Below, piece after piece: positions 12,034 through 32,000 of a DNA stretch of 32,000 nucleotides (position 1 is the stretch's first letter; every line of letters begins with the position of its first letter). The notes beneath the pieces were generated by a model. It was not told the origin of the DNA. It worked only from the letters and a program-made list of their open reading frames with translations, and did not search any database. The DNA is from Parasynechococcus marenigrum WH 8102 (GTDB lineage Bacteria > Cyanobacteriota > Cyanobacteriia > PCC-6307 > Cyanobiaceae), in contig NC_005070.1 of NCBI RefSeq assembly GCF_000195975.1, forward strand, positions 330,001 through 362,000, written 5' to 3'. Made by a program: the position numbers and the translations under genes.

Positions 12034-12039
12034 AATGAC

Positions 12040-15290: not shown

Positions 15291-15296
15291 TACCAA

Positions 15297-16312: not shown

Positions 16313-16322
16313 ACCCAAAAAA

Positions 16323-17424: not shown

Positions 17425-17527
17425 CAGCGAATCAAGAGTGTCGTCAGTTTGGCGCTGACAACCGCTGTCGCTGCATCTGTTCTGACGGAAGTTGGATGAA
17501 CTCAGGAGTCCGGTTGAGATGGAGGAG

Positions 17528-17749: not shown

Positions 17750-17897
17750 CCTTGTTATGGCCCTGGTCTTACCTGGGTGGGCGTAGCTGACAATATTGAT
17801 CTGGAAATCAGCACGCTCCCATACCCCCTTCAGGAGCTTCCGGCGCTGGCAGTCGTAACTAGCCTTACGGAGCCAAACTGGTTCCAGGCAAAAAAGC

Positions 17898-18713: not shown

Positions 18714-18747
18714 CGGGAATTGCGTAATGAAAAAGCCCCAATATTTA

Positions 18748-18771
18748 CCGTGTTCCGGAACACGGTTTTTT
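18748..18771 (+). terminator. Rho-independent terminator
   Basis: The perfect palindrome ccgtgttcc/ggaacacgg is followed by tttttt, 35 nt after the stop of 17898..18713. Confidence 0.8.
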
Positions 18772-18886
18772 GATCCCTTTGGTCTTCCGACTTCATTTCT
18801 AGGGGCCTTTGACGTTCTTCTGAAGTGATGGTCTGGTTGATTTCAGTCACACCAGGATTTTTGGAAAACGATCTCTAGGGACTGTT

Positions 18887-20005
18887 TTAATTTGCCGCCG
18901 GTGGAAGTGAGTTCAGCCCGCTATTAACTGCCTGCTCCAATCGTCTGGGGTTGTAAAGCGCCCCAACCGAATCGAACATCGCCAGCATCCTGGTGATCGC
19001 ATCAACATGGCCGGTGGCTTCTGAGCTGGCAGCTCTGTTTTCTGATTCCCACTGCTTGTGGCCGGAGTGGCTTAACCACTGCCACAGCTCATCACGTATC
19101 AATGAACGGGCAGCAGTTGGATTGGCGATCAGCGCATTGGCTTCTACCTTTCGCGGCCCGTACGTCTCCAGGTAGTCCTGCACATACGGGAACTTGCGGT
19201 GCTTGTGATTTGGGTTGGCCAAGTCACCACCACTGCTGGTTTCAAGACCGTCGATCCACACCAGACCGGCATTGTCCACAAACTCGGCGTTTAGCCCAAA
19301 GCGCACGATTCGACCGTCGTCAGCCATGTCTTCCAGGGAATCGTCCCAGTTCAGAACCTTGGCCAATGGCCTCAGGTTTTCAGCGATTGCGTCGGACATC
19401 TTGACCCCCATCGGATCAAGGTCGCCGCAATAAAGAACCACCGGTTCCAGTCCCTGCAACTCGGCCCAATCACATTCCTGAATCAGCGCCACCCTGCTGT
19501 TCACGTCAGCCTGGCCTTTGCTGGCAAAACGGCGGATTGCGTTGGGCAATTCCGGCTCGAACAGCTTGATCAGGTCACGTTTTTCAGTCCAGATGATCGG
19601 GAAGTACTCCTGATGCTTCCAGTAGCTGGCAGGCCAGTAATGCTTGGCTTGATCCAGCGATTCCCGCAGCTGACGGTTGATGTATTCCCGCGGGGTTTCT
19701 TCTTTGTCGTAGACGTCAGAACCAGACAGAGCACGGGTTGAATCCGCACCGACAAGTTCAAACGGAATCAGCCCTTCTTTGCGGCGATCAGCAAGCCACT
19801 TACCAGACCAAGTGAAATCGCCTTTAGTGATGATGCCTTCTGATTCCAGGGCATACAGCCAGGAGCGAGCAACAGGAGCAAAACCGAGACGCGCAACGTA
19901 TTGGCGCATCCAAGCCACTACTTCATGCATATCTGCATGAAATTGCAGTCTTTTGGCTTCACTAATCCTGCCGCTGCCCATTCGGGGTAGTGCGGTGATG
20001 ATCAC
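18887..20005 (-). CDS. Topo-VI-A/Spo11-like Toprim protein (stand-alone, mini-A or JetD-like)
   Basis: The 372-aa ORF has IIWTEKRDLIKLF (Toprim Glu, cf. vVEKdavF), VLYCGDLDPMGVKM (DxDPxG metal site) and KVEANAL (cf. ElEAL). The N-terminal ARSWLYALESEG offers a candidate RxxxY catalytic Tyr in a winged-helix-like segment. Confidence 0.55.
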   Translation of the reverse strand: MIITALPRMGSGRISEAKRLQFHADMHEVVAWMRQYVARLGFAPVARSWLYALESEGIITKGDFTWSGKWLADRRKEGLIPFELVGADSTRALSGSDVYDKEETPREYINRQLRESLDQAKHYWPASYWKHQEYFPIIWTEKRDLIKLFEPELPNAIRRFASKGQADVNSRVALIQECDWAELQGLEPVVLYCGDLDPMGVKMSDAIAENLRPLAKVLNWDDSLEDMADDGRIVRFGLNAEFVDNAGLVWIDGLETSSGGDLANPNHKHRKFPYVQDYLETYGPRKVEANALIANPTAARSLIRDELWQWLSHSGHKQWESENRAASSEATGHVDAITRMLAMFDSVGALYNPRRLEQAVNSGLNSLPPAAN

Positions 20006-20101
20006 GGGTGAAGTTGCAAAAAATGGATTACGTAGTCACCCCCAACACCCAAGAATCCAGAACTGGATAAATGGGTGAGAGGGGAATAAGGGGAGGGGTT
20101 A

Positions 20102-22072
20102 TTAGTCCGGGCGACTCGGGTTCCAGAAGGCCCTAACCCACTTGCCGGTGCCGATGCGGCGTTGGTCATAGAGCCACCCGTGATGGGTCATCAACTCCCG
20201 GATGCGTTGGGCGTTGAAGTTGTTCTGGCGTTCCGGACCGATCTCCAGGAAGTCGTAGATCTGCTGGCGCTGGACGTAAGCCGCAGTGCCCTGGCGTTTA
20301 AGCCAGTCGCCGATCAGATCCGACCACGGGTCCACGAGGTCGTAGTCGCTGTTCCTGGTGAGGATGCGATCCATCTCCTCATCGGTGCTCCACGTCTGGA
20401 GACCGTTCTGGAACTCCCGCAGTGCCTTGGTCCAGATGGCGTCTCTGGCTTCGGCGATCCGCTGAACGGGCAGCTTTTCGTCACCGACGGGGATCATCAC
20501 GAACCTGGTGGAGCCGGTGTTGTCCGTCAGCGGCGACTTGTTCGTCGTCGCGAAGAACACGGACCGCCGGTGGATCGGTTCAGTGCCTGGGGCGTACTTA
20601 CGGCGCACTAAGTCCACCCGCCTACTCAGGAAGGCTTTGAGCTTTTCCTGTTGAGTCCGGCGGGTGATGCCGTTCAGCTCGCCCAGCTCCATGCCCCACA
20701 CGAACTGGAGTCGGGTCACGTCGTCGATGTCCAGCGCGGAGGAAAGTCCGTCGCCGTAGAACTCGTGGCCGAACAGGCTCCTGCCTGCCTCCGTCTTCCC
20801 GATCCCCTGGCCGCCAAGAATGCACGGGGTCTGACGTTGCTGGCAGCCGGGGACTTTGACCCTGGCCACGGCGCTGGTCAGATACCGAGGCATGAATGCG
20901 TCGGCGATGGGGTCGTCGACGTTGAACAGGAAGCGACCCAGATGATTCCAGTCCTCATCAGGCAGGGGGTCCGCCGAGAGGTTGGACAGGTAGACATCCA
21001 CGGGATCGAACTGATGCTCGTGAGCCAGCTCAATAAACGCATCGCGAGCGATCTTCTGGCTCCACCGGTTGGGGCTCGGTGGCATCGACAGGCGGAGGTA
21101 GAGGTTCTCCGTCTGGGTCGCCGTGGCCTCTGCACCGTTGATGTGGATGCCGCGGCTTCGCAGGTTCAGTCGGGGTACATCGCCCAGCTGCTCAGCCATC
21201 AATTTGAGGGCGTCGCCTGCCTGGACTTTCTTTTGACGTAAATCCTGTTGCTCCACATGGATCCGGAACACCGCGGCGTTGCCAACGGCTGTCTCGCGAT
21301 CACCGCAGTAGGCCCAGGTGACCCCTCCCTTAACGACCGTCTCGCCCTTGGCCATCACCGGTGGCGACCAACGCTTGCCGTAGTGGCAGAGGATCACCTT
21401 CCCGTCGGCGGATTGGCGGCAATCAGGTTCTGTGCGCCCACAGATCGGGCAAGGGATGGCGTCATGCCAATCCCCGACCTGTTTATGGGATCGCCTGTTT
21501 TCCGTCTTGGCCATGGCCTTTTGCCATAACGCCCACCAGTCATCGGGGATGGGGGCGATCCGCTCCGGATTGCGCTGGGTCCAGACGTATTCGCCGCCAG
21601 ATTGGCGGTGCTCGCCGGCAACGATGCACTGGCCTGTGGACCAGAAGATCTCGACCTTCTCGTTCCCGTCGGCCTTCACCTCGCATTTGCCTGGAAGGTG
21701 TTCCCACCGTTCCTTTGGCACTCTGAAGAAGAGCTTGTAGCGGTTGGAATCGGTATTCCGACCAACCATCCAGGTGACCGGCTGGTGCTCGATCCCCATC
21801 CTGATCAGCTCGCTGATGGCACTGAGCCCATCGATGTCGAAGCAGACGATGCCGCCTGCGTCAGGGCCTAGGCGTGTGCCGACACACAGGACCTTTGGTC
21901 CCATTGCCGCGATCTCATCGGGAGTGAACGACATGTGTTGCCAGCCCTTCGCACCGAAGCCAGTGGAGGGATCAATGGGCGCCTTGAACTTTTCCCCTGC
22001 ACCACAGGGGATGAGAGGGAGGCCAGTGAGCTGCGGGAGCAGCTTCTGCCTCCAGTTGCTGACTGGTTTCAT
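20102..22072 (-). CDS. Bifunctional primase-polymerase (prim-pol) / zinc ribbon / VirE-D5-type P-loop helicase
   Basis: The 656-aa ORF has the N-terminal prim-pol pattern LPLIPCGAGEKFKAP...GWQ...VGTRLG...IVCFDIDG. Its central part is CPICGRTEPDCRQSADGKVILCHYG. Its C-terminal part has Walker A GGQGIGKTE and WGMELGEL, typical of VirE-family ATPases. Confidence 0.85.
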   Translation of the reverse strand: MKPVSNWRQKLLPQLTGLPLIPCGAGEKFKAPIDPSTGFGAKGWQHMSFTPDEIAAMGPKVLCVGTRLGPDAGGIVCFDIDGLSAISELIRMGIEHQPVTWMVGRNTDSNRYKLFFRVPKERWEHLPGKCEVKADGNEKVEIFWSTGQCIVAGEHRQSGGEYVWTQRNPERIAPIPDDWWALWQKAMAKTENRRSHKQVGDWHDAIPCPICGRTEPDCRQSADGKVILCHYGKRWSPPVMAKGETVVKGGVTWAYCGDRETAVGNAAVFRIHVEQQDLRQKKVQAGDALKLMAEQLGDVPRLNLRSRGIHINGAEATATQTENLYLRLSMPPSPNRWSQKIARDAFIELAHEHQFDPVDVYLSNLSADPLPDEDWNHLGRFLFNVDDPIADAFMPRYLTSAVARVKVPGCQQRQTPCILGGQGIGKTEAGRSLFGHEFYGDGLSSALDIDDVTRLQFVWGMELGELNGITRRTQQEKLKAFLSRRVDLVRRKYAPGTEPIHRRSVFFATTNKSPLTDNTGSTRFVMIPVGDEKLPVQRIAEARDAIWTKALREFQNGLQTWSTDEEMDRILTRNSDYDLVDPWSDLIGDWLKRQGTAAYVQRQQIYDFLEIGPERQNNFNAQRIRELMTHHGWLYDQRRIGTGKWVRAFWNPSRPD

Positions 22073-22088
22073 GCGAGGGGGGTGCTCC

Positions 22089-22352
22089 TCAAACCGTCAG
22101 CGGCGCGGTGTCTCTGCCGAAGGTTTCAACCTCCGCCGAAGACTCCCGCTTGTGGTTCCACAGGCTTTGGATTGCCTGCTCCTTGTTCCATCTGACCTTG
22201 CGAGTGCCGAGGCCGATGAACTGCCAATCCCGGTGCTGTTGGAAAGGACCGTTGGGGTCCCGCCGCATCCGAAGAATTGTCTCTGGACTGAGCTGAGCCG
22301 CCTGGGCGACTTCAGCGGTTGTGGACGCAATTTCCATTTCGAGGGCACGCAC
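22089..22352 (-). CDS. Small HTH protein, excisionase/AlpA-like regulator
   Basis: It has the HTH TTAEVAQAAQLSPETILRM and the start may be ATG at 22337. It is clearly homologous to 31316..31528 in element 2 (shared ..DW......R..L.WN.E.A......W.........VETF). It sits immediately upstream of the primase gene. Confidence 0.55.
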   Translation of the reverse strand: MRALEMEIASTTAEVAQAAQLSPETILRMRRDPNGPFQQHRDWQFIGLGTRKVRWNKEQAIQSLWNHKRESSAEVETFGRDTAPLTV

Positions 22353-22354
22353 CC

Positions 22355-22615
22355 TCAGGTGCGCGGGGTGCCATCCCAGTTCTCATGGTGCAGAAGTTCC
22401 GCCTGGAGCTTGGCCATGAAGTTGGCCTTTTTGTCCCGGCGTCCCTGATCAGGATTGCCTTTGTCAAGCGTTCCAATAGAGAAGCCCTCGTCTAGTCGCA
22501 CCCGCGCGCGGGTGAAATAGCGAACAAGACGTTCCAGGTGCTGACGTTCATGACCCTCAGGCCAATGAGTCAAGCGACCAGGACGAATCGGAATTGGGCG
22601 ATCAGGACCTTGCAT
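22355..22615 (-). CDS. Hypothetical protein
   Basis: Met-36 version of tracked ORF 22355..22720. Its stop lies 2 nt from the start of the next gene, consistent with an operon. Confidence 0.35.
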   Translation of the reverse strand: MQGPDRPIPIRPGRLTHWPEGHERQHLERLVRYFTRARVRLDEGFSIGTLDKGNPDQGRRDKKANFMAKLQAELLHHENWDGTPRT

Positions 22616-22812
22616 CCAGCAGGGATGACGTGTTCGGTTTGATCCCCCGGAGGCAGACGCGCTGCTGCTGTTCCGACATCTCGAAGGCAACGTAACACCA
22701 CTGATCGGGATCGTCAGCAAATTTCCCCACCGATGCCACTACGGATGGTGTCAGCAGCTGGAAGTGTCTAGAGCAGTTGGGAGAGGTTGCAAGGATTGAA
22801 TAAATCTATGCC

Positions 22813-22862
22813 GATAATGATTATCATTCTTTTGTGCCAATAATGAGAATTATTCTTATACT
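22813..22862 (+). promoter_or_regulatory. Two Fur/Zur-type boxes overlapping a candidate promoter of the metallothionein gene
   Basis: Box 1 is GATAATGATTATCATT (22813-22828), with the perfect core AATGA-TTA-TCATT. Box 2 is AATAATGAGAATTATTC (22839-22855). A candidate -35 ttgtgc lies at 22832-22837 and a -10 tatact at 22857-22862. Confidence 0.55.
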
Positions 22863-22915
22863 TTAGGCCGCTTATTGGTCTAGTGTTGTGGCTGAAAATT
22901 GCCTGGCCACATCAA

Positions 22916-23086
22916 ATGTCTACAGCAATCAAATGTGCATGCCCTAAGTGCACCTGTATGGTCGCAGAAGAGAGCGCAATTGTTCTTCAAGGTAAGTTCT
23001 TTTGCTCGACGTCCTGTTCAACAGGGCATGCCAATAATGAGCCCTGTCATGGCGAAGGCTCTTGTGGATGTAAGTGCGGAGAGTAA
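22916..23086 (+). CDS. bmtA: Bacterial metallothionein (SmtA/BmtA family)
   Basis: The 56-aa protein is MSTAIKCACPKCTCMVAEESAIVLQGKFFCSTSCSTGHANNEPCHGEGSCGCKCGE. Its Cys/His spacing follows SmtA (KCACxxCxCxV....AI...G..yCS..C..GH......C......C.C). Confidence 0.85.
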   Translation: MSTAIKCACPKCTCMVAEESAIVLQGKFFCSTSCSTGHANNEPCHGEGSCGCKCGE

Positions 23087-23144
23087 TCGGGGCGGTGGCC
23101 AGGCATGGCGGTGCTTTAAGCCCGCCTTCAACGTTGGGGTGGTG

Positions 23145-24425
23145 TCAGGGCAGCGGGATCGTGCCGGTCTTGGCGGCGAAGTCGCGGGTCCTCATCCCCA
23201 GGGTCATGGTCCGATAGCTGTGCGAGTGCACCGCTTCGCTGTGGCCCATCGCGTCGCAGATCGACGCCACCGGCACTCCCTCTCGGTGGCAGCGGATCGA
23301 GTAGGTGTCCCGAAAGCTGTAGGGCCGCAACCACTCGCTCGGATCCTGTTTGTCGTAGTGCTCCACCAGCTCTGCCCAATAGATCTGAACCGCACCGCTG
23401 GGCTTGCCTGTCGATCGTGACTTCCGGTGGATGTAGCAGTTCACCGCGCTCCCAGAGAGCTTGCGGACATCACCATCCCTGCCGGTGGGCAGCTGCAAGG
23501 TTCCGTCGGCCATCGCCTGCTCCAGGGGCCACACCACCGGCTGATCGTTGCCGTCGCGGATGTACATCGCTTCCAGGAAGCGGGGATCGGTTTCCTCTTC
23601 ACCGCCGGTCTTCCTGTAATTGCACCAGATGGCTGGCTTGCCGGTCACCGGGTTGACTCGGCTGCTCAGATGCTGAAGCTCGATGGGTCTTAAACCAAAT
23701 TGCGTCAATAGTCGGAACACGTTGCCCCACCTGACGTTTACCGAGTCGGCCAGCTCAATCAGGCGCAGCATCTCTAGGTCGTCCAGCACCGCTTTAAGCC
23801 TCGGCTTCGGTGCCTTGGGGATCAGCTCGTCCTTGTCGAACTCGGTGATCAGCCAGCTCGCTGGGGCCTTGTGCCGGGACACCGCGAACTGCATAAACAG
23901 GCCGAGGTAGCGGCCGCACTCCACCTTCATCGTGGGAGCCCCTTCCCAGTTCTTCAGAGCCTCCTTCAACAGGCCATAGCCGTCGTGGGCCTTGCCGGTG
24001 TTGATGAGCCTCACGGCGTAGTCGATGAATGGCCGCCAGTTCTTCCGGAAGGTGTGGGCGCTGCACTTCTGCGACTGCTGCACCCGGGACGCCTCCATTG
24101 CGTCTGCGATTTGTGCCCATGTTTTGGCCTTCTCCTCTCCTTGGAGATCGCTTGTGTCGTGAGCGTCGGCGACTGCTGCCTTCAGCGTTTTCTCGCCGTT
24201 GTCCCACGCCTTGTAGACCGCCTCAATCCACCGGATGGCGTTGCGGTGGTGCACCTCATCCCAGGTGTTGGGCCGCGGCAAGTAGGCGGTCTCTGCGGGG
24301 CGGCCACGCTTCCTGACGCGCAGCACGATCCGGTCGCGGACGCGGGAGATGCTCCAGCCGTTCCAAGGCTCAGTTGTCTCGACCAGGCGCTGTTCCCACC
24401 GGGGGCGCGAGTCATCCGGAGCCAA
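23145..24425 (-). CDS. int: Tyrosine site-specific recombinase (integrase)
   Basis: The 426-aa ORF has the C-terminal catalytic region LRPIELQHL...(R), YSFRDTYSIRC (HxxR-type box), and DAMGHSEAVHSHSYR (H...Y). The annotated start is TTG and is not certain. Confidence 0.9.
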   Translation of the reverse strand: MAPDDSRPRWEQRLVETTEPWNGWSISRVRDRIVLRVRKRGRPAETAYLPRPNTWDEVHHRNAIRWIEAVYKAWDNGEKTLKAAVADAHDTSDLQGEEKAKTWAQIADAMEASRVQQSQKCSAHTFRKNWRPFIDYAVRLINTGKAHDGYGLLKEALKNWEGAPTMKVECGRYLGLFMQFAVSRHKAPASWLITEFDKDELIPKAPKPRLKAVLDDLEMLRLIELADSVNVRWGNVFRLLTQFGLRPIELQHLSSRVNPVTGKPAIWCNYRKTGGEEETDPRFLEAMYIRDGNDQPVVWPLEQAMADGTLQLPTGRDGDVRKLSGSAVNCYIHRKSRSTGKPSGAVQIYWAELVEHYDKQDPSEWLRPYSFRDTYSIRCHREGVPVASICDAMGHSEAVHSHSYRTMTLGMRTRDFAAKTGTIPLP

Positions 24426-24429
24426 TGGA

Positions 24430-24453
24430 GTGATGCCAAAAGTGATGCCAAAA
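24430..24453. repeat. Perfect tandem 12-mer x2 (gtgatgccaaaa) abutting the integrase start
   Basis: Read directly at 24430-24441 and 24442-24453. It lies 5 nt upstream of the int start on the minus strand. Confidence 0.85.
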
Positions 24454-24549
24454 AGATCCTATTCAGTCGTTCTCTGTCGTCAAGGGTTGCCAACAGACCA
24501 GGGCTCTGACTATGTTCTGCCCGTGATCGTTGTTTCCGTAAGGAAAGCA

Positions 24550-24603
24550 GTCAGTTGTATTACCCAAATGACTCATGGGGCCTGGAAGGGCCCTTCAACC
24601 ATT
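24550..24603 (+). repeat. Distal att-like direct repeat (copy 2): an orphan copy of the tmRNA 3' end
   Basis: gtcagttgtattacccaaatgactcatggggcctggaagggcccttcaaccatt is the partner of 12271-12324. No tmRNA body lies upstream of it. Confidence 0.85.
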
Positions 24604-24891
24604 GCCAATACTTGAGTCACGGATGCGACTAGGCCGAGATTTTGGAGCTGCGACCCAGGGTGTGACCCGAAGGTCGTCGTTTTAGGGCTAAGTGACCCAT
24701 GCGGGGTCACAGAGGACTGCTGCGGAAACCTGCTGAATCTTGGAGAAGTTGGTAGAAGTCAAGTGAGCACAAGGGTAGAAGCCTTTCTTTTGTTATTGCA
24801 AGACAATAAAATAAGGGCGGTGCATCACTCCGCCCCTAGGAATCACCAACATCTATAGATGAGAGATCTGCTCCTTTAGTTTAGTTCAACG

Positions 24892-25059
24892 ATGCCTAAA
24901 CGTACACTTCCTGTCTATGTGGAAATGGTGCTTTCTCAAATACTGCAAGAGTCAGCATTAGAGAAGCAATCAATTGATGATGATTGTCCCTCAGTCCCGC
25001 AGGGCTGCCCTCTTTCCACCCCCCAAAGCCGTCTTACTGCAGTTGAGGTTAACCAATGA
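24892..25059 (+). CDS. Hypothetical small protein (55 aa, not in ORF track)
   Basis: The ATG at 24892 opens MPKRTLPVYVEMVLSQILQES.... Its TGA overlaps the ATG of the next ORF (ATGA at 25056-25059), suggesting translational coupling. Confidence 0.35.
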   Translation: MPKRTLPVYVEMVLSQILQESALEKQSIDDDCPSVPQGCPLSTPQSRLTAVEVNQ

Positions 25060-25454
25060 TTGATTTAGATCAGGCCATTGATCAGTCCTATCGAGAAGCA
25101 TCTGATGCTGAGGCTGTTGCCCGGCGCTTAGAAGCCAGGATTGAGCAGATTCCAGGTGCACAAGGGTTGCTCCCCCGCAGAAAATATGGAACGCCCGTGA
25201 ACTTCAAGGCGATCCAAGAAAATCTCACCTTGGCCTCGTTGATTACACAGGCTGATGCAGCACTAGCGAACTACTGCGGGCTGGATGCCTCGGTGAAGCG
25301 CCGCATGGATGAAGAGAGGGAGGCTCAAAAGCTTCGTGTTGAGGCTTTGAGGATGCGCACAGAGTGCCTGAGGGAGGCCAACGAACGTGCTGCCAAGACT
25401 CGCGAGCAGCAGCTCGTCAGTGGCATCAACCCCATGACTGGGAGGTACTTCTGA
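25056..25454 (+). CDS. Hypothetical coiled-coil protein
   Basis: 132-aa ORF. It is coupled to both neighbours by overlapping stop and start codons. Confidence 0.5.
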   Translation: MIDLDQAIDQSYREASDAEAVARRLEARIEQIPGAQGLLPRRKYGTPVNFKAIQENLTLASLITQADAALANYCGLDASVKRRMDEEREAQKLRVEALRMRTECLREANERAAKTREQQLVSGINPMTGRYF

Positions 25455-25801
25455 TGCTTGCTCGGCCGCACCCTTGCCTTGGTTGGCTCCATTGCCAACC
25501 ACAGGACAGCAGACGACTTCTCGATCGACAGCTAACCCATCGCGATCATGTGCTGGAGGCTGACCCAAGCTTCAGCGGTATGCCAGCGAGCTTCGTTGAG
25601 GAGACCTGGGTCGACTGGTTGCCGAAGGCTGTCGCTCAACCCTTCTACAGAGACCAGCTCACCGCCCATGTTGCAGAGCTGGAACGCCAAATCTCCAACC
25701 TCAGCCGGGAGATTGAACTGCAGTCCGGCGGCCTGCTCGATCAACGAGATGCAGCTGTGGATCTCAGGCAACGTCTCAAGCATCTGCTGGAGACCTCATA
25801 A
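25454..25801 (+). CDS. Hypothetical protein
   Basis: Met-31 version (MLARPHP...) of tracked ORF 25364..25801. Its ATG overlaps the upstream TGA (TGATG). Confidence 0.45.
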   Translation: MLARPHPCLGWLHCQPQDSRRLLDRQLTHRDHVLEADPSFSGMPASFVEETWVDWLPKAVAQPFYRDQLTAHVAELERQISNLSREIELQSGGLLDQRDAAVDLRQRLKHLLETS

Positions 25802-25840
25802 CCCTGGTCAACCATCAGTTTCCAGACGCACCCGATACCG

Positions 25841-26032
25841 ATGCCAAACATTCTTGATCACGTCTCACAAGCACCAGTCCTTGAAATAGACGTCTGGCCA
25901 CGCTCAGCAACACGCAAAGAATGGTTCGCCATCACGCGACGCATTATTCAAGACACCATCGCTGACATGAACCTCGATCCTGCTGCTGAAGCAGAAATGA
26001 TCGATGCCTTTACTGGTGCTGGGCTGCTGTGA
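25841..26032 (+). CDS. Hypothetical small protein
   Basis: 63-aa ORF, last in the co-directional cluster. Confidence 0.35.
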   Translation: MPNILDHVSQAPVLEIDVWPRSATRKEWFAITRRIIQDTIADMNLDPAAEAEMIDAFTGAGLL

Positions 26033-26380
26033 CAGTCCGCTGGTGACTCCTTACGCGTAACGGCCCTGTCCTGTTCAAGCGGTGGCTGTATGGCGGCATC
26101 CAAGACCTAGGAAAACCAGCAGTGACGGAGCTGCTGCTGGATTGTATTGACCCGTTCATTTGTTAAGTTGAGCGGGACAGGATGGTGGCGTGGCACCTAG
26201 GCGTGAGCTTCTAGTTTGAAGCGGCATTGAACCACGCGCATCCAGCATTTGGGGGAGAAGAAGCCCTTATATTGATTGATATATCACTCAGTAATTGATG
26301 AGCCAAGATGAGCTAGGTATCACTTAATGCAATTCTTAGATTAATGGAATGCTATTCTTAGTTTATCGCTATACAAGTCA

Positions 26381-27640
26381 ATGGCAATTTTAGCATGGGA
26401 AGACATTTCAGGGGACAAATTTATTCATACATTCGATTTACATCGAAAAATTCCTAATGCAAAAAATCCTGAACCTGATTGCCCGGTTGAAATAGAAGCG
26501 TCGGAGTCTAATAAAAATGCGGCTGGTTATATATCATTTATCGGCGATAGTTTGTTGGATATGGTAGATCCCTCGGCTTTGGAGTCCAATTTGTACGGTT
26601 CACCTAGATCGTACGGTGGTGACACTGCCAGTAATTGTTCAATCCAAATGCAATTAATGGGTAAAGGTTATGACATTGGCGAAAATGCAGCCAAGGGCAG
26701 TGCTGTGATTGGCCAAGCCGCGGTGGACTGGGCGTTGAGTTCGGAGGGACTATCACTAGCAAATATTAGCGACCTATATGATACATTAAAAAATAGCTTA
26801 TCAGATGATAAATTTGACACACTAATGATTTCAGGTGGTATAGGAAATGTACTTAATATCCCGGATGGCGAGAATCCGGTCGACTGGTCGAATCAGGCTG
26901 CGGATCAGATGGAGAGCCTCATAAATTCAATATTAGCGGATAACCTTTGGAGTAAAATCGTAATAGTAGGATATGCAATAAGTGCAACACATCCACGCAA
27001 TTTTATACAAATACTCCACAATAAATTTAGTTACTTAGCTGAAAATAATAGTAAAGTAGAATTTATTAATACCGATTATCTTTATGACCAACGTGCTGGT
27101 GGCGATGCAGTTTTGCGTGAATCATTATTCGGTGGTGATGGAAATCACGGTGGTGTTGAAGGACACAGGCTTGTAGTAGAGAGCTTTGATACTTTGCAGG
27201 GGCTGCAACTAAAACCCGCACCAGAGCCAGAGGAATACGACAGCATCATTGAATCGGTTCTTGGCAAGGGCAAATTAAAAGGAACGACGGGTGCAGATGC
27301 CTTCACTTTTGATTCCTTTGAAGCATTCACAAAGAAATCTGCTGATAAGATCATTGGATTTAATGCGTCGCAAGGAGACACAATTGCTGTCGGTCCCAAT
27401 GCGTTCCCTTCCTTGCAAGGTGTCTCCGATATCAGCTTTGCATCGACTAGGAGCAAGAAGGAATTCAAGCAAATGTCCAAGGAGGATTACGACTTTGTAT
27501 ATTTTGAGAAGAAAGGTCGCCTCTACTTCGATGGAAATGGCGCAGAGAAGAACTGGGGCAACAGTAGTGAGGGAGGTCTTGTGGCAATCCTGAAAGGAAA
27601 GCCTGAGCTAACTGCTGAAGACATAACACTGTTGGCTTGA
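26381..27640 (+). CDS. GDSL/SGNH-family hydrolase with RTX-like (T1SS-type) C-terminal region
   Basis: The 419-aa AT-rich ORF has SGNH block I FIGDSLLD, block III-like GGIGNV and block V DGNH. The C-terminus (GTTGADAFTFDS...DKIIGFNASQGDTIAV...GRLYFDGNG...LVAILKGKPELTAEDITLL) follows the pattern seen at the ends of RTX/T1SS substrates. Confidence 0.6.
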   Translation: MAILAWEDISGDKFIHTFDLHRKIPNAKNPEPDCPVEIEASESNKNAAGYISFIGDSLLDMVDPSALESNLYGSPRSYGGDTASNCSIQMQLMGKGYDIGENAAKGSAVIGQAAVDWALSSEGLSLANISDLYDTLKNSLSDDKFDTLMISGGIGNVLNIPDGENPVDWSNQAADQMESLINSILADNLWSKIVIVGYAISATHPRNFIQILHNKFSYLAENNSKVEFINTDYLYDQRAGGDAVLRESLFGGDGNHGGVEGHRLVVESFDTLQGLQLKPAPEPEEYDSIIESVLGKGKLKGTTGADAFTFDSFEAFTKKSADKIIGFNASQGDTIAVGPNAFPSLQGVSDISFASTRSKKEFKQMSKEDYDFVYFEKKGRLYFDGNGAEKNWGNSSEGGLVAILKGKPELTAEDITLLA

Positions 27641-27663
27641 CAAAGCTTTAACGCTGAACACCA

Positions 27664-28044
27664 ATGGCAATCACCACCAGAGCACAACGACAACAACGCC
27701 GTAACGAGGCTCTACAGCTGATTAGCAGTGGTGTCCCGCCAACTGACGCTGCGTCTCAGTTGACTGTGAAGTGGGGGTGCAGCAGGCGAACGAGTCTGCG
27801 TGACATAGAAATCGCGCAGAGTGAACTAGCGAACGCCTTGGACTCGGTTGAGCTTCAGCAGATGGTGGGTTGGTTGGCGACGCAATATCAACGTCTAGCC
27901 GCCAAAGCTGAACGCGATGGTCAGTATTCAGCAGCCGTTGGTGCTCTGAATGCGTTGAGAGCAATGGTTGTGCAGCCACAACTGGATGCGCAGTTTGCTG
28001 CTCACTTCCGTGGCCGGTTTACGCACCATTCCTACCGGCGGTGA
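27664..28044 (+). CDS. HTH DNA-binding protein, TerS-like architecture (counterpart of 14450..14815)
   Basis: The 126-aa ORF has ASQLTVKWGCSRRTSLRDIEIA (HTH) and a later helix YSAAVGALNALRAMVV. It is alignable by eye with the element-1 protein. Confidence 0.5.
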   Translation: MAITTRAQRQQRRNEALQLISSGVPPTDAASQLTVKWGCSRRTSLRDIEIAQSELANALDSVELQQMVGWLATQYQRLAAKAERDGQYSAAVGALNALRAMVVQPQLDAQFAAHFRGRFTHHSYRR

Positions 28045-28375
28045 TATGGCAATCTTCGGGGCTTGCTCAATGCCCCATGGATTACAAGGATTTTTGCCTC
28101 ACCTGTCTGGTTACGTTGGCGGCCATCAACACGGTGCTGAATGTGCGCGCTCTTCGAAGACGCTGAGCTGCGGCAAAGGAGCAAAGGCCAGTTTGTCAGT
28201 GCCACTCCGATCTCACTGGCCGGTTGAGTCTCAAGATTGCTGGACTCGATTTGGACGTGATGGAGGTTGTCTCGTCGCATCCCATTCCCGTCTCAGTCGC
28301 CGGGACCCCTGGCCCCGCAGGGCCGGAGTCTCAACGGATCAGCTGGACTGTCCTGCGTCACTGTGTTTGTGGCCG

Positions 28376-28537
28376 TTACGCAGCACTGTCTCCCATCAGT
28401 TCTGAAACGCTGGGCATCGGGTCTGGCTTGCCATCGGCAATGGCTCGAGCGCGGAGGTAGAACCAGCTTTCCGTGTCGCCCTTGGCTTCCATGCTTTCGG
28501 CGATGGTCTGCCAGTTGTTGATTTCGGCTTGGTCCAT
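28376..28537 (-). CDS. Hypothetical small protein (53 aa, not in ORF track)
   Basis: MDQAEINNWQTIAESMEAKGDTESWFYLRARAIADGKPDPMPSVSELMGDSAA has a natural-looking composition, unlike the overlapping Arg-rich tracked ORFs. It lies downstream of the RepA-like gene on the same strand. Confidence 0.3.
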   Translation of the reverse strand: MDQAEINNWQTIAESMEAKGDTESWFYLRARAIADGKPDPMPSVSELMGDSAA

Positions 28538-28626
28538 AGGGGGTGAGTCTTTGAAAAGATCCCCGGGCTCTCACCTCCGGGGACTGTTGTACGTCTTCTC
28601 GCAGCTCCGCAAGAGACGGCAGAAAA

Positions 28627-30171
28627 CTAAGAACCTTGATCTGGATCTGTCGGTTCGGATGACCGACGCCCAGCCTTGTTCTTGCATTCCCGGCTGCAGA
28701 AAATCTTTGGCCGCCCACGCTTGTTGGCCGGGAAAGTCGTCCCGCACTCAGGACACTCCCGTTCTTCTGTGGCATCGGACTTTTCGGACCTTTCGGACGG
28801 TGGCTCTGAGGCCGGCGGCGAAACAGGGTCCGATATGTCCGATACATCCGTAGCTGGGAAGAAGGGCAGCACTGCGTCGACCGGTCTGAACAATCTGGTC
28901 GGCTGACCCCTGCCACCACCTCGTGCCGGGCGTTCCCGGTCGAACTGGATCAACTTCTTCTGTAGAAGCGCATCCATCACTTCCTTTGACCGCTTTCGAT
29001 CCAGGTCAAGCGCAGCGCCCAGGTGCGGCCGATCCACACCCAGCTGGGTGGTGACCCAGTGATGGGTCATGTCTCTGAGGGCATCACTTTGCCGCTCGGT
29101 GAGTTTGTCGAGGATTTCCTCCATCGCCTGCTGCCGGGCAACCTCTGCAGCGGAGCCATGGCTGATCCAGTTGAAGCCTTCATCGACTTGCTCGATCAGC
29201 AGATCCAATGGCCTGCCAGCACGGCCTTCAGTTGTGAGCTTGACCCGATAGTCCGCCGGGGCCAACGGGTTGTCCCCTGGGTCAGAGACCCACGCCAGGC
29301 TCACGGTCTGACTCACTGCTGCCGGGAGAGCAGTGGTTCCACGAGAGGCGCTGGAGGCCCGGCCCTTTGCCGAGTGACGGTTGCTGTGGTGAATGACGAT
29401 CAGGCTTGCGTCGTACGGAGCGATCGCTTCCTGCAGATCTATCAGTGGGTCGGCATAGCTGTTCGACTTCTCCTCCAGGCCCAGCGCAGCGGTGGCCGCG
29501 GCGTAAGAATCCAAAAGGATGATCAGGCTGGAGAAGTCCCTGCAGAACTCCACGATCTGATCGATGCCACCTTCGTCCAGGTGCAGGGGACAGCCCTTGT
29601 GAAATACGCCAACGACGGCGTCGACGAGGTTCCCCTCGGGATCACTCAGCCCTGCGCGGACCAAACACTCTTGCCAGTCGTCTTCGGTTTGATCCGGGCC
29701 GACGATCAAGATCAGCGGCTCCGATGCCGGTAGCGCGTGACCCAGGAATGAATGGTCCCCGCGCCGGATCCGGCCGAGCACCATCGTCATCAGCCGCGAC
29801 TTTCCTACCTTCGGCAAAGCGATCACGAGTGTGGTGGTCGCTGCCATCACCACACCTGTCCATAACCATCGGGCCTTGGAGAGCTTGAGCTTCCCGCCGC
29901 GTGGCACCGGCGTTGCCGCACCAGCCAGCTCCCGGCGGGCATCCCACAGGTACTGCTTCAGCTCTTGGTTGGAGAACTCAGCTTCGTAATCACGGGCGGC
30001 ATCCTTTATGTGAATCATCCGATCCCTCGATCCGATGGAGTCGTCGATGACGATTTCCTTGGCCTTCGACTTGATTCGTTTGATGTCAGCGGCCGGGCCG
30101 AAGCCGACAGCGGCAGGACCGGTGCCGTTCTTCAGCTCTGCGCTGAGGTTTGGATGCTGTTGTTCTGCCAT
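28627..30171 (-). CDS. RepA-like (AAA_25/RecA-fold) replicative ATPase with C-terminal zinc ribbon
   Basis: It has Walker A ALPKVGKSRL, Walker B LIILLDSYAAA and IVIHHSNRH. The C-terminus is CPECGTTFPANKRGRPKIFCSRECKNKAGRR. Start taken at MAEQQH, whose ATG overlaps the upstream stop by 1 nt. Confidence 0.7.
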   Translation of the reverse strand: MAEQQHPNLSAELKNGTGPAAVGFGPAADIKRIKSKAKEIVIDDSIGSRDRMIHIKDAARDYEAEFSNQELKQYLWDARRELAGAATPVPRGGKLKLSKARWLWTGVVMAATTTLVIALPKVGKSRLMTMVLGRIRRGDHSFLGHALPASEPLILIVGPDQTEDDWQECLVRAGLSDPEGNLVDAVVGVFHKGCPLHLDEGGIDQIVEFCRDFSSLIILLDSYAAATAALGLEEKSNSYADPLIDLQEAIAPYDASLIVIHHSNRHSAKGRASSASRGTTALPAAVSQTVSLAWVSDPGDNPLAPADYRVKLTTEGRAGRPLDLLIEQVDEGFNWISHGSAAEVARQQAMEEILDKLTERQSDALRDMTHHWVTTQLGVDRPHLGAALDLDRKRSKEVMDALLQKKLIQFDRERPARGGGRGQPTRLFRPVDAVLPFFPATDVSDISDPVSPPASEPPSERSEKSDATEERECPECGTTFPANKRGRPKIFCSRECKNKAGRRSSEPTDPDQGS

Positions 30172-31004
30172 CACTCCACCTCCCCGAGGTAGTGCCACCG
30201 GAAGTGGTCGGCCATGCGTTTCTGTTTCTTGAGTGCGGCCGCAGCCGTCTCAAGCACGGTGATCTGGTGATCCCAGCCCTGCCGGGTGTCGGCCTTCACC
30301 TTGGTGAGGCAGTCATCCACCAGTTCAGTGCTGACGTTGATCAGTGCCAGCAGGTGCTGCAGCTCTGGCGGTGGAGTGTTGTGCAGCTGGAAGTCGGTGA
30401 TGGCGAGCGCTGTGTCGGCGTCCGCGATGAGCACCTCGATCCATGCCATGTAGCCGGAGTCCTTCGGGGCAGGTTTGGCGACCTGCCGGGCCCGGGTTCT
30501 GTTGAGCGCGGTGTGAGCGCGGAAGACATAGCTGTTGCCTGAATGCCCGCCATCGGTGGCAACCAGTGCGGCATGCTCACCATTGATATCGATGACATCA
30601 CCGATGCGGATGTTGCTGGGTGGGTGGTTGGTGTCACCCACGAAGCAATTCCAGACGCCATCACCCCATCGGCAGTGACCGTTGCGGACTCGACCACACA
30701 CCGGGCAAGGGGAGCGCCTGCTGGATGACTGCGCTATCCGGCCATGCCGCTGCTCTGCCTGTATCGCAGGTACGCGGCCGGATCGGCGTCTCACGCCACC
30801 ACGACGACTGCGTTGTCGCCGGGCTTCCTGAGACTGTCGCGGATCAGTCTCGTTGTGGACTGAGTTGTTATTGAGAATTGGACACGAGTCTGTGTCCAAG
30901 ACAGGCTGTGACTGAGGAGACTGTTGCTCCCAGGCGGCCGGGCCTAAATTTGAATAGTTGAAATCCAGATCCAGGCCCGCCGCGGCAACGGCGGGCTTTT
31001 TCAT
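30171..31004 (-). CDS. Zinc-ribbon protein (replication-associated; module shared with element-1 primase)
   Basis: CPVCGRVRNGHCRWGDGVWNCFVGDTNHPP...GNSYVFRAH aligns by eye with CPICGRTEPDCRQSADGKVILCHYGKRWSPP...GNAAVFRIH in 20102..22072. It is translationally coupled to the RepA-like gene. Confidence 0.55.
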   Translation of the reverse strand: MKKPAVAAAGLDLDFNYSNLGPAAWEQQSPQSQPVLDTDSCPILNNNSVHNETDPRQSQEARRQRSRRGGVRRRSGRVPAIQAEQRHGRIAQSSSRRSPCPVCGRVRNGHCRWGDGVWNCFVGDTNHPPSNIRIGDVIDINGEHAALVATDGGHSGNSYVFRAHTALNRTRARQVAKPAPKDSGYMAWIEVLIADADTALAITDFQLHNTPPPELQHLLALINVSTELVDDCLTKVKADTRQGWDHQITVLETAAAALKKQKRMADHFRWHYLGEVE

Positions 31005-31007
31005 GGA

Positions 31008-31316
31008 TCAGTCGGCCTCCACCTTGGAGAGCTGTTGGTGCAGCTCTCGCGACATTGCTCTCTGCAGAGGTGTTTCCCTTCCAAGAGCAATTGTTAGCTG
31101 TTCGTGGAACGCCTCTCCTCGCATCGTTTCGTCGACACTTTGATCCCAAAGCAGGTCCGCAAGCATCTCGAAAGTTTTCTGCCACCAGCTGAGATCAGGC
31201 TTGTTGGCGTAATGCTTCTTCAGAGCATCGAGGACTCCATGCTTTTCAAGAGTGTGGCCATCTAATTCGATGGAAGACTCTCCACAATGGATCACGAGTT
31301 TGATGTTTTTATCCAT
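31008..31316 (-). CDS. Hypothetical protein
   Basis: Met-32 version (MDKNIKLVIHCG...) of tracked ORF 31008..31409. Its ATG overlaps the upstream stop by 1 nt. Confidence 0.4.
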   Translation of the reverse strand: MDKNIKLVIHCGESSIELDGHTLEKHGVLDALKKHYANKPDLSWWQKTFEMLADLLWDQSVDETMRGEAFHEQLTIALGRETPLQRAMSRELHQQLSKVEAD

Positions 31317-31528
31317 CACTTCGCCTCCACTGCTTCGAAGGTTTCCACGGTGCTGGGAGCTGGACGCTTCCAGTTGGTAAAAGCCCGCTCGACGGCCTCC
31401 TCGTTCCACTGCAGGGGGCTACGGGCTGACGCGCCTTTGCGTCGCCAGTCCTGCCCCTCGCGGAACATTGTGGTGTTGTTCTTGAGGGCGAGAGGTGTTT
31501 TGTCGCTGATGCCGAGGATCTTTTTCAT
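31316..31528 (-). CDS. Small HTH protein, excisionase/AlpA-like (homologue of 22089..22352)
   Basis: MKKILGISDKTPLALKNNTTMFREGQDWRRKG...PLQWNEEAVERAFTNWKRPAPSTVETF aligns with the element-1 protein, including the shared VETF. Confidence 0.5.
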   Translation of the reverse strand: MKKILGISDKTPLALKNNTTMFREGQDWRRKGASARSPLQWNEEAVERAFTNWKRPAPSTVETFEAVEAK

Positions 31529-31566
31529 CCTCGCGGTGTCGATCCAATTAATTGGATGGGTAAATG

Positions 31567-31779
31567 TTATCCCCGCATCATTTCCACAGCTTCTCTAACC
31601 CAAGGCTGACACCTATAAAGCCAGTTCTCTTCTGGATTCTCGGCGTGAGCTTTGGCAATGATTGAAGCAACAAACTCGACGCCGTCAATCTCTAACTGAG
31701 GAGTGCCAGCGGGGAACTTTAGGGTCCGACCGTTGATTCTCTTGGATTTGAGTTGGGCGTATTTGTCGTGCTTAGCCAT
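31567..31779 (-). CDS. Hypothetical small protein
   Basis: 70-aa ORF, first gene of the minus-strand module; no family recognised. Confidence 0.4.
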   Translation of the reverse strand: MAKHDKYAQLKSKRINGRTLKFPAGTPQLEIDGVEFVASIIAKAHAENPEENWLYRCQPWVREAVEMMRG

Positions 31780-32000
31780 GGCTTAATCGGGGGTGATCTT
31801 GAGGCTTGTCCTAGATCAACTCCCCTCAGCCCACCGAATAATCGATAGTCAGGTTCTCAGAAAGGGAACCCGCCGGATATACGATCGGCGGGGCAACTTT
31901 CGAGTGATATTTCATCTCTAGCAGTATGTTGCCTGTTCGTCTACCCCCAAATTCCTTTCAATTCCGTCCCGCGGCCCGCTCGAACGCATCCAACATCGTT

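What the first reader, a model, noticed from the sequence alone, without database searches (positions are those of the whole stretch)
24604..32000. Second, related element in tandem; integrase and third att copy predicted beyond the window
After att copy 2 come a new lifecycle set (Xis-like HTH, zinc-ribbon protein, RepA-like ATPase, TerS-like HTH) and new cargo. There is no integrase and no further copy of the tmRNA 3' end before 32000. Element 1 keeps int at its tmRNA-distal end. By analogy, element 2 should end with an integrase and a third repeat to the right of the window. Tandem accretion at one RNA gene would make this locus an island-building hotspot.
Basis: inference. Interest (0 to 1): 0.65.

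Follow-up and report, generated by a model that had tools for sequence, protein, structure and literature searches.

The report
Second tmRNA-targeting island, integrase found
The window cuts through a second 8.8-kb integrative element lying behind the first at the tmRNA gene of marine Synechococcus WH8102, and its predicted integrase and third repeat do sit 1.4 kb past the window's end; this is a clear but already-described kind of island building.

Summary
The prediction holds. A 725-kb scaffold matches the window 100% over window 18627-32000, and two exact protein matches identify the source as Synechococcus WH8102 or a near-identical strain. This scaffold supplied the sequence to the right. 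Element 2 runs from att copy 2 (24562) to a third copy of the tmRNA 3' end at window-equivalent 33366-33384, a length of 8804 bp. It ends with an inward-facing 410-aa tyrosine recombinase at 31958-33190(-), 29% identical to element 1's integrase. The last 13 codons of this gene lie inside the window.

Other genomes carry each element alone. SAG AG-670-B23 has an element-2 type directly at its tmRNA gene. Metagenome contigs have element 1 joined to the sequence that follows element 2 in WH8102.

The left and right arms of the att copies travel with the element type and switch within ACCCAAATGACT. Each element has its own short repeats in both arms.

Past copy 3 come broken XerC-like integrase genes and remnants of further elements. 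Low-GC island DNA continues for at least 40 kb.

Only the RepA-like label has database support. "TerS-like" is unsupported.

This matches tycheposon-type island building, already described in Prochlorococcus and Synechococcus. It is a new member of a known kind.

The parts
12021..12339 (+). Two-piece (circularly permuted) tmRNA gene. Its 3' terminal hairpins hold att copy 1. The similarity between copies spans about 12270-12325. The 19-nt block shared with copy 2 is 12283-12301. The 12-nt core shared by all WH8102 copies, ACCCAAATGACT, is 12283-12294.
   Evidence: ARAGORN; Rfam RF01851, 315 bits, with structure alignment; repeat search; alignments
12302..24561 (.). Element 1, 12279 bp from core to core. 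It carries a 121-aa HTH protein (14450-14815 +), a T5orf172 protein (17901-18713 +), PrimPol-VapE (20102-22072 -), an 82-aa Xis-like protein (22089-22337 -) and a 426-aa integrase (23145-24425 -). TGATGCCA repeats lie in both arms at 12371, 12383, 24431 and 24443.
24562..24580 (+). att copy 2, the junction between elements 1 and 2. Its left arm is of element-1 type and its right arm of element-2 type. The displaced tmRNA terminal hairpin is kept through a compensatory G-C to C-G change.
24661..24711 (.). Element 2, right (P') arm: three TGTGACCC-type repeats at 24662 (+), 24692 (+) and 24704 (-). These are candidate arm-type integrase binding sites and are conserved in the AG-670-B23 element. 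The matching pair in the left (P) arm lies beyond the window, at window-equivalent 33236 and 33248, 12 bp apart.
24892..26032 (+). Conserved left-end genes of element 2 (55, 132, 115 and 63 aa). They are 73-92% identical to those of the AG-670-B23 element, 81-92% for the three larger ones. No known family matches them.
26381..27640 (+). Cargo gene of 419 aa in the lowest-GC stretch (0.42-0.44). It has an FIGDSL motif near its N-terminus and matches no family. It lies between the 63-aa and 126-aa genes, which are neighbours in the AG-670-B23 element and in the distal remnants.
27664..28044 (+). 126-aa all-helical HTH protein, a hallmark gene of these elements. Paralogues are present in element 1, in two distal remnants, in the SAG and in IMG/VR relatives.
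28376..28537 (-). 53-aa conserved small protein, with paralogues at window-equivalent 43027-43239 and 48321-48479.
28627..30171 (-). RepA-like ATPase or helicase of 514 aa (AAA_25) with a C-terminal CxxC...C zinc ribbon. Its nearest phage relatives are gp45 of cyanosiphoviruses S-CBS3 and S-CBS1.
30171..31004 (-). 277-aa zinc-ribbon protein. It is homologous to the linker between the PrimPol and VapE domains of element 1's replication protein.
31008..31779 (-). Three small genes: 102 aa (31008-31316), 70 aa (31316-31528, homologous to element 1's 82-aa protein and with an AlpA/Xis-like sequence pattern) and 70 aa (31567-31779).
31958..32000 (-). 3' end of the element 2 integrase gene: the last 13 codons and the stop at 31958-31999. 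The window cuts the gene. The whole gene is window-equivalent 31958-33190 (410 aa; 421 aa from a TTG start at 33223), where window-equivalent = 40172 minus the L001 position. It faces inward and is a tyrosine recombinase.

Beyond the window, in window-equivalent coordinates:
- att copy 3, ACCCAAATGACTGCTGGGG, at 33366-33384 (+), the right end of element 2.
- A XerC/D-type integrase pseudogene at 33372-34458 (+).
- A second integrase C-terminal fragment at 34827-35135 (+).

Best explanation
Positions 24562 to 33384 (the last 1.4 kb lies beyond the window) form one discrete integrative element of 8804 bp. It is of the tycheposon-like kind and sits in tandem behind a related 12.3-kb element at the tmRNA gene of Synechococcus WH8102.

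Proposed mechanism:
1. Each element encodes its own lambda-type tyrosine recombinase at the end far from the tmRNA gene, reading inward.
2. The recombinase exchanges strands within a short core, ACCCAAATGACT. This core lies in the single-stranded stretch between the last two hairpins of the coding piece of the two-piece tmRNA.
3. The element's right arm brings a replacement terminal hairpin, so the tmRNA gene stays whole. The displaced 3' end is left at the far side of the element.
4. Repeated use of the same core, by integrases that read different arm repeats (TGATGCCA for element 1, TGTGACCC for element 2), stacks elements one behind another.
5. Older elements decay in place, and this builds an island of at least 40 kb.

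Shown: the three repeats, the two integrases and their fold, the way arms travel with element type, and each element occurring alone in other genomes.

Inferred: that the arm repeats are integrase binding sites; that the 70-aa protein sets the direction of recombination; that the excised circle replicates with the RepA-like helicase and the zinc-ribbon protein; and how the element moves between cells, which remains unknown.
For: Extension of the sequence and source:
- Scaffold L001 is 100% identical to window 18627-32000.
- Two proteins from the scaffold extension just beyond the window are exact matches to WH8102 proteins CAE06893 and CAE06894.

The predicted features:
- The third att copy is at window-equivalent 33366-33384.
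- The 410-aa protein ends 176 bp from it and is 29% identical to element 1's integrase (E 1e-36).

The protein is a tyrosine recombinase:
- The family keeps R252, K280, Y356 (in place of His), R359, H382 and Y391.
- A family profile hits the XerC-like structure 4a8e (7.6e-5).
- 5 of 12 members hit PF00589.
- An AlphaFold model (pLDDT 85) matches Tn1549 Int, lambda Int, Cre and XerA with probability 1.00. It shows an N-terminal three-strand sheet plus helix, as in arm-binding domains.
- dN/dS is 0.05-0.07 against homologues in the SAG and in a metagenome contig.

Independent occurrence:
- AG-670-B23 has tmRNA, then a 7.85-kb element-2 type, then an att copy, with no element 1.
- L031 is 99.6% identical to element 1, but its far att copy has the right arm of WH8102 copy 3.

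Other support:
- Arms switch within ACCCAAATGACT.
- The terminal hairpin is kept in 97.6% of cells, with two pairs showing compensatory changes.
- Arm repeats are enriched: 5 of 14 GTGACCC and 4 of 9 TGATGCCA fall in the arms, and the element-2 repeats are conserved in the SAG.
- The two elements share four homologous genes.
- IMG/VR relatives with the same hallmark genes lie next to tRNA-Arg and tRNA-Pro.
- Tandem elements separated by partial tRNA copies, and the tmRNA gene as a target, are described for tycheposons (bioRxiv 10.1101/2020.12.28.424599). An integrase at the far end is described in Synechococcus (PMC8995045).
Against: - Excision has not been seen directly. No attP-type junction and no att core were found in IMG/VR.
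- The RepA-like protein has no relative in IMG/VR.
- Every contig that carries the exact 132-aa protein shows the same element 1 + element 2 tandem. These contigs come from about 23 assemblies and probably all represent the WH8102 clone.
- The element 2 integrase itself does not reach any Pfam model.
- The integrase family is small: 13 clusters in 5.8 billion proteins.
- The arm-repeat statistics are post hoc.
- No packaging, capsid or conjugation gene was found, so the transfer route is unexplained.
- Whether these integrases belong to the tycheposon clade could not be tested.
Confidence: 0.85

Rival explanations
1. Element 2 is a phage satellite (PICI-like tycheposon). A helper cyanosiphovirus of the S-CBS1/S-CBS3 type would induce it, and it would travel in that phage's capsids. 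The 126-aa HTH protein would act as a small terminase or as a phage-sensing regulator.
For: - The RepA-like helicase is 31-33% identical to gp45 of S-CBS3 and S-CBS1, which are its only phage relatives.
- It matches phrog_30286 at 3e-77.
- Its size and its content of integrase, Xis-like protein, replication genes and a small HTH protein resemble PICIs as described.
- The 126-aa family has 382 representative members and recurs in every element.
Against: - No TerS, capsid or interference gene was found by Pfam, PHROGs, NCBIfam, PADLOC, a PDB sequence profile or a fold search. The best TerS fold match has E = 2.3 and probability 0.15.
- The HTH protein and the integrase have no match in 50,697 phage records.
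- The element carries a cargo gene. PICI-like tycheposons were never seen with additional cargo.
- It is absent from IMG/VR.
Confidence: 0.15
2. Element 2 was once mobile but is now a fixed, immobile part of the WH8102 island. The integrase and att copies would be relics that no longer recombine.
For: - All contigs with the exact element-2 protein show one and the same arrangement.
- No excised form was seen in public viral contigs.
- The neighbouring elements to the right are clearly decayed.
- Copy 3 differs from the tmRNA copy at 2 of 19 positions.
Against: - The integrase reading frame is intact, keeps every catalytic residue and has dN/dS 0.05-0.07.
- Both arms and their repeats are conserved between strains whose elements are about 81-84% identical in DNA.
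- The 12-nt core is identical in all three WH8102 copies.
- Each element occurs alone in other genomes.
Confidence: 0.25
3. There is only one composite island. The internal repeat at 24562 would be a chance match or a local duplication, so 'element 2' would be cargo of element 1.
For: None beyond the fact that only two repeat copies are visible inside the window.
Against: - A 19-nt exact repeat has a chance expectation of 0.01.
- A third copy follows, with its own integrase.
- The two intervals occur separately in other genomes, with arms that match accordingly.
Confidence: 0.02

Closest known systems
Tycheposons (Hackl et al., bioRxiv 10.1101/2020.12.28.424599; the Synechococcus variant in Grebert et al. 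2022, PMC8995045)
   Same: - Integration next to a tRNA or tmRNA gene, with a partial gene copy at the far end.
- An inward-facing tyrosine recombinase at one end, with a small replication module beside it.
- Cargo genes of unknown or adaptive function.
[quoted passage not shown]
- Decayed integrases and fragments further into the island.
- The integrase at the far end, as reported for Synechococcus.
   Different: - The host is Synechococcus clade III, and the target is the tmRNA gene rather than tRNA-Phe.
- The integrases are about 410-426 aa with a long N-terminal part, and most members escape PF00589.
- Placement in the tycheposon integrase clade and matches to the published hallmark-gene profiles could not be tested.
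- Mobility has not been shown here.
[quoted passage not shown] 2015, PMC4383910; Williams 2003, cited there)
   Same: - The island splits the 3' end of the target gene and restores it.
- The displaced fragment marks the far end.
- A tandem array is called when each member has its own integrase and fragment. Both conditions are met here.
   Different: - In a permuted tmRNA gene the 3' end is the end of the coding piece, not the T-arm and acceptor region. The crossover therefore lies outside the three tRNA-like sublocations listed for such islands.
- Islander finds integrases with PF00589. The element 2 integrase does not reach it, so that screen would probably miss this array.
Phage-inducible chromosomal islands and other phage satellites
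   Same: Similar size (8-12 kb), a site-specific integrase, an Xis-like protein, own replication genes, and a replication helicase related to that of a phage of the same host genus.
   Different: No small terminase, capsid, redirecting or interference gene was detected, and no helper phage is known. The element carries cargo.
Lambda and Tn916/Tn1549-type heterobivalent tyrosine integrases
   Same: - The predicted fold matches lambda Int and Tn1549 Int.
- The N-terminal sheet-plus-helix domain resembles an arm-binding domain.
- Short repeats lie in both arms around a common core, and a small Xis-like gene is nearby.
   Different: Sequence identity is 13-14%, His is replaced by Tyr in the HxxR motif, and binding to the arm repeats is untested.

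Membership tests
Tycheposon | Integrated next to a tRNA or tmRNA gene and flanked by the full gene on one side and a partial copy on the other | tested here: met
   tmRNA gene at 12021-12339. Partial copies at 24562-24580 and at window-equivalent 33366-33384.
Tycheposon | Site-specific integrase at one end, facing inward, with an optional small replication module beside it or at the other end | tested here: met
   Integrase at 31958-33190(-), 176 bp from copy 3. The small genes, the zinc-ribbon protein and the RepA-like gene follow on the same strand.
Tycheposon | Integrase belongs to the tycheposon-specific clade of tyrosine recombinases | not testable with these tools
   No reference sequences of that clade were at hand. 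Indirect evidence only: relatives of this integrase lie in IMG/VR contigs that also carry tRNA-Pro(tgg) or tRNA-Arg(cct).
Tycheposon | Shares the family's hallmark mobility and replication genes (published profiles) | tested here: inconclusive
   PrimPol/VapE, a RepA-like helicase and an Xis-like protein are present. This gene set recurs in relatives. The published profiles themselves were not available.
Tycheposon | Carries cargo or phage-packaging genes | tested here: met
   A 419-aa low-GC gene is inserted between two backbone genes. No TerS or capsid gene was found.
Tycheposon | Mobility: excision, a circular form, and patchy distribution among strains | tested here: inconclusive
   Patchy distribution is shown, since each element occurs alone elsewhere. 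No circular junction was found in IMG/VR. Culture experiments were not possible.
Tyrosine recombinase (Phage_integrase, PF00589) | Catalytic residues R, K, H, R, H/W and Y in order | tested here: met
   R252, K280, R359, H382 and Y391 are invariant in 12 sequences. The first His is replaced by the invariant Y356.
Tyrosine recombinase (Phage_integrase, PF00589) | Tyrosine recombinase fold | tested here: met
   A model of a 98% identical family member (pLDDT 85) matches Tn1549 Int, lambda Int, Cre and XerA, with E 6e-5 to 9e-4 and probability 1.00.
Tyrosine recombinase (Phage_integrase, PF00589) | Reaches the Pfam model | tested here: not met
   The element 2 integrase has no Pfam hit at E up to 0.1. 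5 of 12 family members do, with a best E of 1.6e-5. A family profile hits the XerC-like structure 4a8e at 7.6e-5.
Tandem tDNA island array (Islander definition) | Each member has its own integrase gene and its own fragment of the target gene, in the same orientation | tested here: met
   Element 1: integrase 23145-24425, fragment at 24562. Element 2: integrase 31958-33190, fragment at 33366. All are direct repeats on the + strand.
Phage satellite (PICI-like) | A gene that redirects phage packaging (small terminase, capsid or size-redirecting protein) | tested here: not met
   The 126-aa 'TerS-like' protein has no TerS match by Pfam, PHROGs, a PDB sequence profile or fold. The best TerS fold match has E = 2.3. 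No other candidate was found.
Prophage | Virion structural and lysis genes | tested here: not met
   No element 2 protein gave a PHROG structural or lysis hit.

The most novel reading that the evidence does not exclude
These elements may form a Synechococcus-specific lineage in which several integrases share one 12-nt crossover core in a part of a two-piece tmRNA that is not tRNA-like. Each integrase would read a private set of arm repeats, so different elements could stack and leave independently at one RNA gene. Element 2, with its cyanosiphovirus-type RepA helicase, could be a phage-dependent satellite with a packaging factor of an unrecognised kind. The ubiquitous 126-aa HTH protein is the candidate for that factor.
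Probability: 0.15. Interest if true: 0.6.

Novelty: new member of a known kind. Interest (0 to 1): 0.35.

Why it matters
- The work gives a precisely mapped example, in a model strain, of how islands grow at a marine picocyanobacterial RNA gene. It shows two intact elements, their crossover core, their candidate arm sites, and a gradient of decay behind them.
- WH8102 can be cultured and has genetic tools, so excision, integration and transfer of tycheposon-like elements could be tested directly there.
- The integrase family mostly escapes Pfam-based screens, and NCBIfam gave no hit for the element 2 integrase. Arrays of this kind are therefore probably under-counted.
- The integrase and attB pairs could serve as insertion tools for marine Synechococcus.
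- The principle itself, tandem accretion at a tRNA or tmRNA gene, is already published.

Tried and rejected
- A look-up of the 523-aa GTG-start form of RepA found nothing. The 514-aa ATG form worked.
Ids obtained from the listing of cluster members were accepted, and this allowed the walk to window-equivalent 52685.
- The right border of the island was not reached.
- IMG/VR has no relative of RepA and no copy of the att core or of the element-2 P-arm junction.
- The one GTDB scan gave a single locus, and the one metagenome scan gave four short contigs.
- The third homologue search failed on a time-out but still counted. As a result the 126-aa protein was modelled from a two-sequence alignment (pLDDT 72.7), and the fold search gave nothing significant.
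- TerS was tested and not supported.
- PADLOC and NCBIfam gave nothing for any element 2 protein.
- The integrase and the HTH protein have no match in phage records.
- No fourth att copy was found up to window-equivalent 45288 (ext3) by a short-word BLAST. Window-equivalent 45289-52685 was not scanned for att copies.
- The paper 'Traffic at the tmRNA gene' could not be read. No accessible paper describes this WH8102 array explicitly.
Those features are now described in text under the last part.

Full report
**1. What is in the window**

The window holds a circularly permuted (two-piece) cyanobacterial tmRNA gene at 12021-12339 (ARAGORN; Rfam RF01851, 315 bits, 12027-12314). With up to three mismatches it occurs nowhere else in the window (chance expectation 0.01). 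The similarity between the two copies extends over about 55 bp.

GC falls from 0.62-0.68 left of the tmRNA gene to 0.42-0.62 from 12.3 kb to the end of the window.

Right of copy 2 there are two gene blocks:
- On the + strand: 55, 132, 115 and 63 aa, then 419 aa, then 126 aa.
- On the - strand: 53 aa, 514 aa, 277 aa, 102 aa, 70 aa and 70 aa.

**2. What the labels are worth**

- **RepA-like (514 aa).** This is the only protein with a database match. It hits AAA_25 (1e-9) and phrog_30286 (3e-77). Its only phage relatives are gp45 of the Synechococcus siphoviruses S-CBS3 and S-CBS1, which in S-CBS3 is annotated as a hexameric RepA helicase (31-33% identity).
- **Zinc-ribbon (277 aa).** It has a CPVCG...C...C motif. 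It is homologous to the zinc-ribbon linker of element 1's PrimPol-VapE protein.
- **Xis-like (70 aa, 31316-31528).** It is homologous to the 82-aa protein in the same position in element 1 (6e-7). It has an AlpA/Xis-like sequence pattern but matches no family.
- **TerS-like (126 aa).** This label is unsupported.
  - The protein belongs to a family of 382 representative sequences.
  - It is predicted to be all-helical (pLDDT 72.7).
  - It shows only weak HTH signals. No terminase match was found by Pfam, PHROGs, a PDB sequence profile or a fold search, where the best TerS hit has E = 2.3.
- NCBIfam and PADLOC found nothing for any element 2 protein.

**3. Extending the sequence**

A look-up of the 514-aa protein returned a 725-kb scaffold. 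It is 100% identical to window 18627-32000, in reverse orientation. Further look-ups extended the sequence to window-equivalent 52685. Two proteins just beyond the window are exact matches to CAE06893.1 and CAE06894.1 of Synechococcus (Parasynechococcus marenigrum) WH8102. The window therefore comes from WH8102 or a near-identical strain.

**4. The prediction is met**

- A 410-aa protein (421 aa from a TTG start) lies at window-equivalent 31958-33190 on the minus strand. It is 29% identical to element 1's 426-aa integrase over its full length (E 1e-36).
- Its last 13 codons and stop lie inside the window, at 31958-31999.
- A third copy of the tmRNA 3' end lies 176 bp beyond its start: ACCCAAATGACTGCTGGGG at 33366-33384, within a longer similar stretch.
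- Element 2 is therefore 8804 bp from core to core, and element 1 is 12279 bp.
- Both elements have the same layout: a + strand block with an HTH gene, then a - strand block running integrase, small genes, replication genes.
- They share four homologous genes.

**5. The integrase is a tyrosine recombinase**

- The family is small, with 13 clusters in 5.8 billion proteins.
- R252, K280, Y356 (in place of the usual His), R359, H382 and Y391 are invariant.
- The family profile hits an archaeal XerC-like structure (7.6e-5).
- Five of twelve members reach PF00589. The element 2 protein itself does not.
- A model of a 98% identical member (pLDDT 85) matches Tn1549 Int, lambda Int, Cre and XerA with probability 1.00. 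It has an N-terminal three-strand sheet plus helix, like an arm-binding domain.
- dN/dS against two homologues is 0.05-0.07.

**6. The two elements are separate units**

- In Synechococcus sp. AG-670-B23, a 7.85-kb element sits directly at the tmRNA gene with no element 1 in front of it.
  - Its integrase is 92% identical to element 2's.
  - Its left-end genes are 73-92% identical to element 2's.
  - Its middle differs: it has a PrimPol/VapE replication module and no 419-aa gene.
- Metagenome contig L031 is 99.6% identical to element 1 over 4.8 kb. Its far att copy carries the right arm that follows element 2 in WH8102. L032 is similar. Element 1 therefore also occurs without element 2.
- Across seven att copies, left arms go with the integrase next to them and right arms go with the element that follows. 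The switch lies within (TAT[C/T])ACCCAAATGACT.

**7. Anatomy of the site**

In the Rfam structure, the core lies in the single-stranded stretch between the last two hairpins of the coding piece of the tmRNA. This is not a tRNA-like part of the gene, because the gene is permuted.

The terminal 6-bp hairpin with a GGAA loop is kept in every displaced copy. 97.6% of cells are paired, and two pairs show changes on both sides. This fits an element arm that must supply a working tmRNA 3' end.

Each element has its own short repeats in both arms:
- Element 2: TGTGACCC at 24662, 24692, 24704 (-), 33236 and 33248. These are conserved in the SAG.
- Element 1: TGATGCCA at 12371, 12383, 24431 and 24443.

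They are candidate arm-type binding sites. The statistics are post hoc.

**8. Beyond copy 3**

Core genes do not resume. The following features come next, in order:
- A XerC/D-type integrase gene starts at the att copy. It is broken in WH8102, with a second C-terminal fragment after it. It is intact in metagenome contig L033.
- Cargo-like genes follow: a periplasmic binding protein, PAP_fibrillin, MIF and DUF411.
- Two further [63-65 aa + 126-129 aa HTH] modules follow. One of them is 84-94% identical to element 2 and ends in a fragment of RepA.
- No further att copy was detected up to window-equivalent 45288, the sequence in hand at that call.
- Low GC continues to at least 52685.
- The distal part also holds a Cyano-2 RNA and two glutamine-II riboswitch aptamers.

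**9. Comparison with what is known**

Hackl et al. describe tycheposons in Prochlorococcus. These elements:
- integrate at seven tRNA genes, including the tmRNA gene;
- have an inward-facing tyrosine recombinase at one end and a small replication module;
- carry cargo;
- are sometimes found in tandem, separated only by a partial tRNA copy;
- leave decayed fragments deeper in the island.

Grebert et al. report the integrase at the far end in Synechococcus. The Islander definition of a tandem array is also met.

Relatives of this integrase family in IMG/VR carry the same hallmark genes next to tRNA-Arg and tRNA-Pro.

I could not test whether the integrases fall in the tycheposon clade. I also found no direct sign of excision. 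No accessible paper describes this WH8102 array explicitly.

**10. Verdict**

The locus is a tandem array of two intact, related, independently occurring integrative elements, followed by older wreckage. It is a well-resolved new member of a known kind. Its main value is as a tractable test case in a model strain.

Noticed in passing
window-equivalent 33372-35135 (L001 5037-6800); L033 1858-3159: A XerC/D-type integrase gene starts right at att copy 3 and reads away from the tmRNA gene. It is broken in WH8102 (PF00589 positions 18-118 only), and a second C-terminal fragment follows. The gene is intact in metagenome contig L033, where a T5orf172-like gene and an element-1-type HTH gene follow it.
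   Followed up: partly
window-equivalent 46591-48701 (L034 about 3985-6095): A truncated second copy of an element-2-type backbone lies deep in the island: a 63-aa gene (84% identical), a 126-aa HTH gene (87%), a 53-aa gene (94%) and the last 40 codons of RepA (70%). An element of this type has therefore entered, or been duplicated in, the island at least twice.
   Followed up: partly
L034 10400-10600(+), 3451-3510(-), 6312-6372(+) (window-equivalent 42086-42286, 49176-49235, 46314-46374); L007 6965-7167(-): The distal island holds a Cyano-2 RNA (187 bits) and two glutamine-II riboswitch aptamers (67 and 60 bits), each upstream of a small ORF. In AG-670-B23 a Cyano-2 RNA lies just past the XerC-like gene.
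   Followed up: no
window 12405-12545 (+): A 46-aa ORF just after the tmRNA gene is 65% identical to the C-terminal part of the distal 129-aa HTH protein (window-equivalent 40100-40489). The first 240 bp after copies 1 and 3 are also alike. Element 1's left end thus carries a fragment of an HTH gene and resembles the left end of the third element.
   Followed up: no
window 26381-27640 (+): The 419-aa cargo protein has an FIGDSL motif like GDSL/SGNH hydrolases and lies in the lowest-GC stretch (0.42-0.44). It sits between two backbone genes that are neighbours in other copies, which marks a cargo insertion point. No family matches it.
   Followed up: partly
window 24574: Copy 2 in WH8102 reads GTATTACCC. 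The same arm in L031-L033, the tmRNA copy and copy 3 all read TATCACCC. This is a single C-to-T difference one base left of the core.
   Followed up: no
L001, L002, L018 and others (ENA ERZ23491930, ERZ922678, ERZ922660; Logan SRR10229831, ERR5431281): Assemblies labelled as estuary or other metagenomes contain scaffolds of several hundred kb that are 99.97-100% identical to this WH8102 region. This suggests cultures, spike-ins or contamination rather than wild populations.
   Followed up: no
L014 1338-2519 and 6482-7642: An IMG/VR contig carries two integrases of this family about 5 kb apart. This may be another tandem array of small elements.
   Followed up: no
window 1759-1841 (+): A tRNA-Leu(gag) gene lies in the high-GC core, 10 kb left of the tmRNA gene, with no sign of an island beside it.
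   Followed up: no
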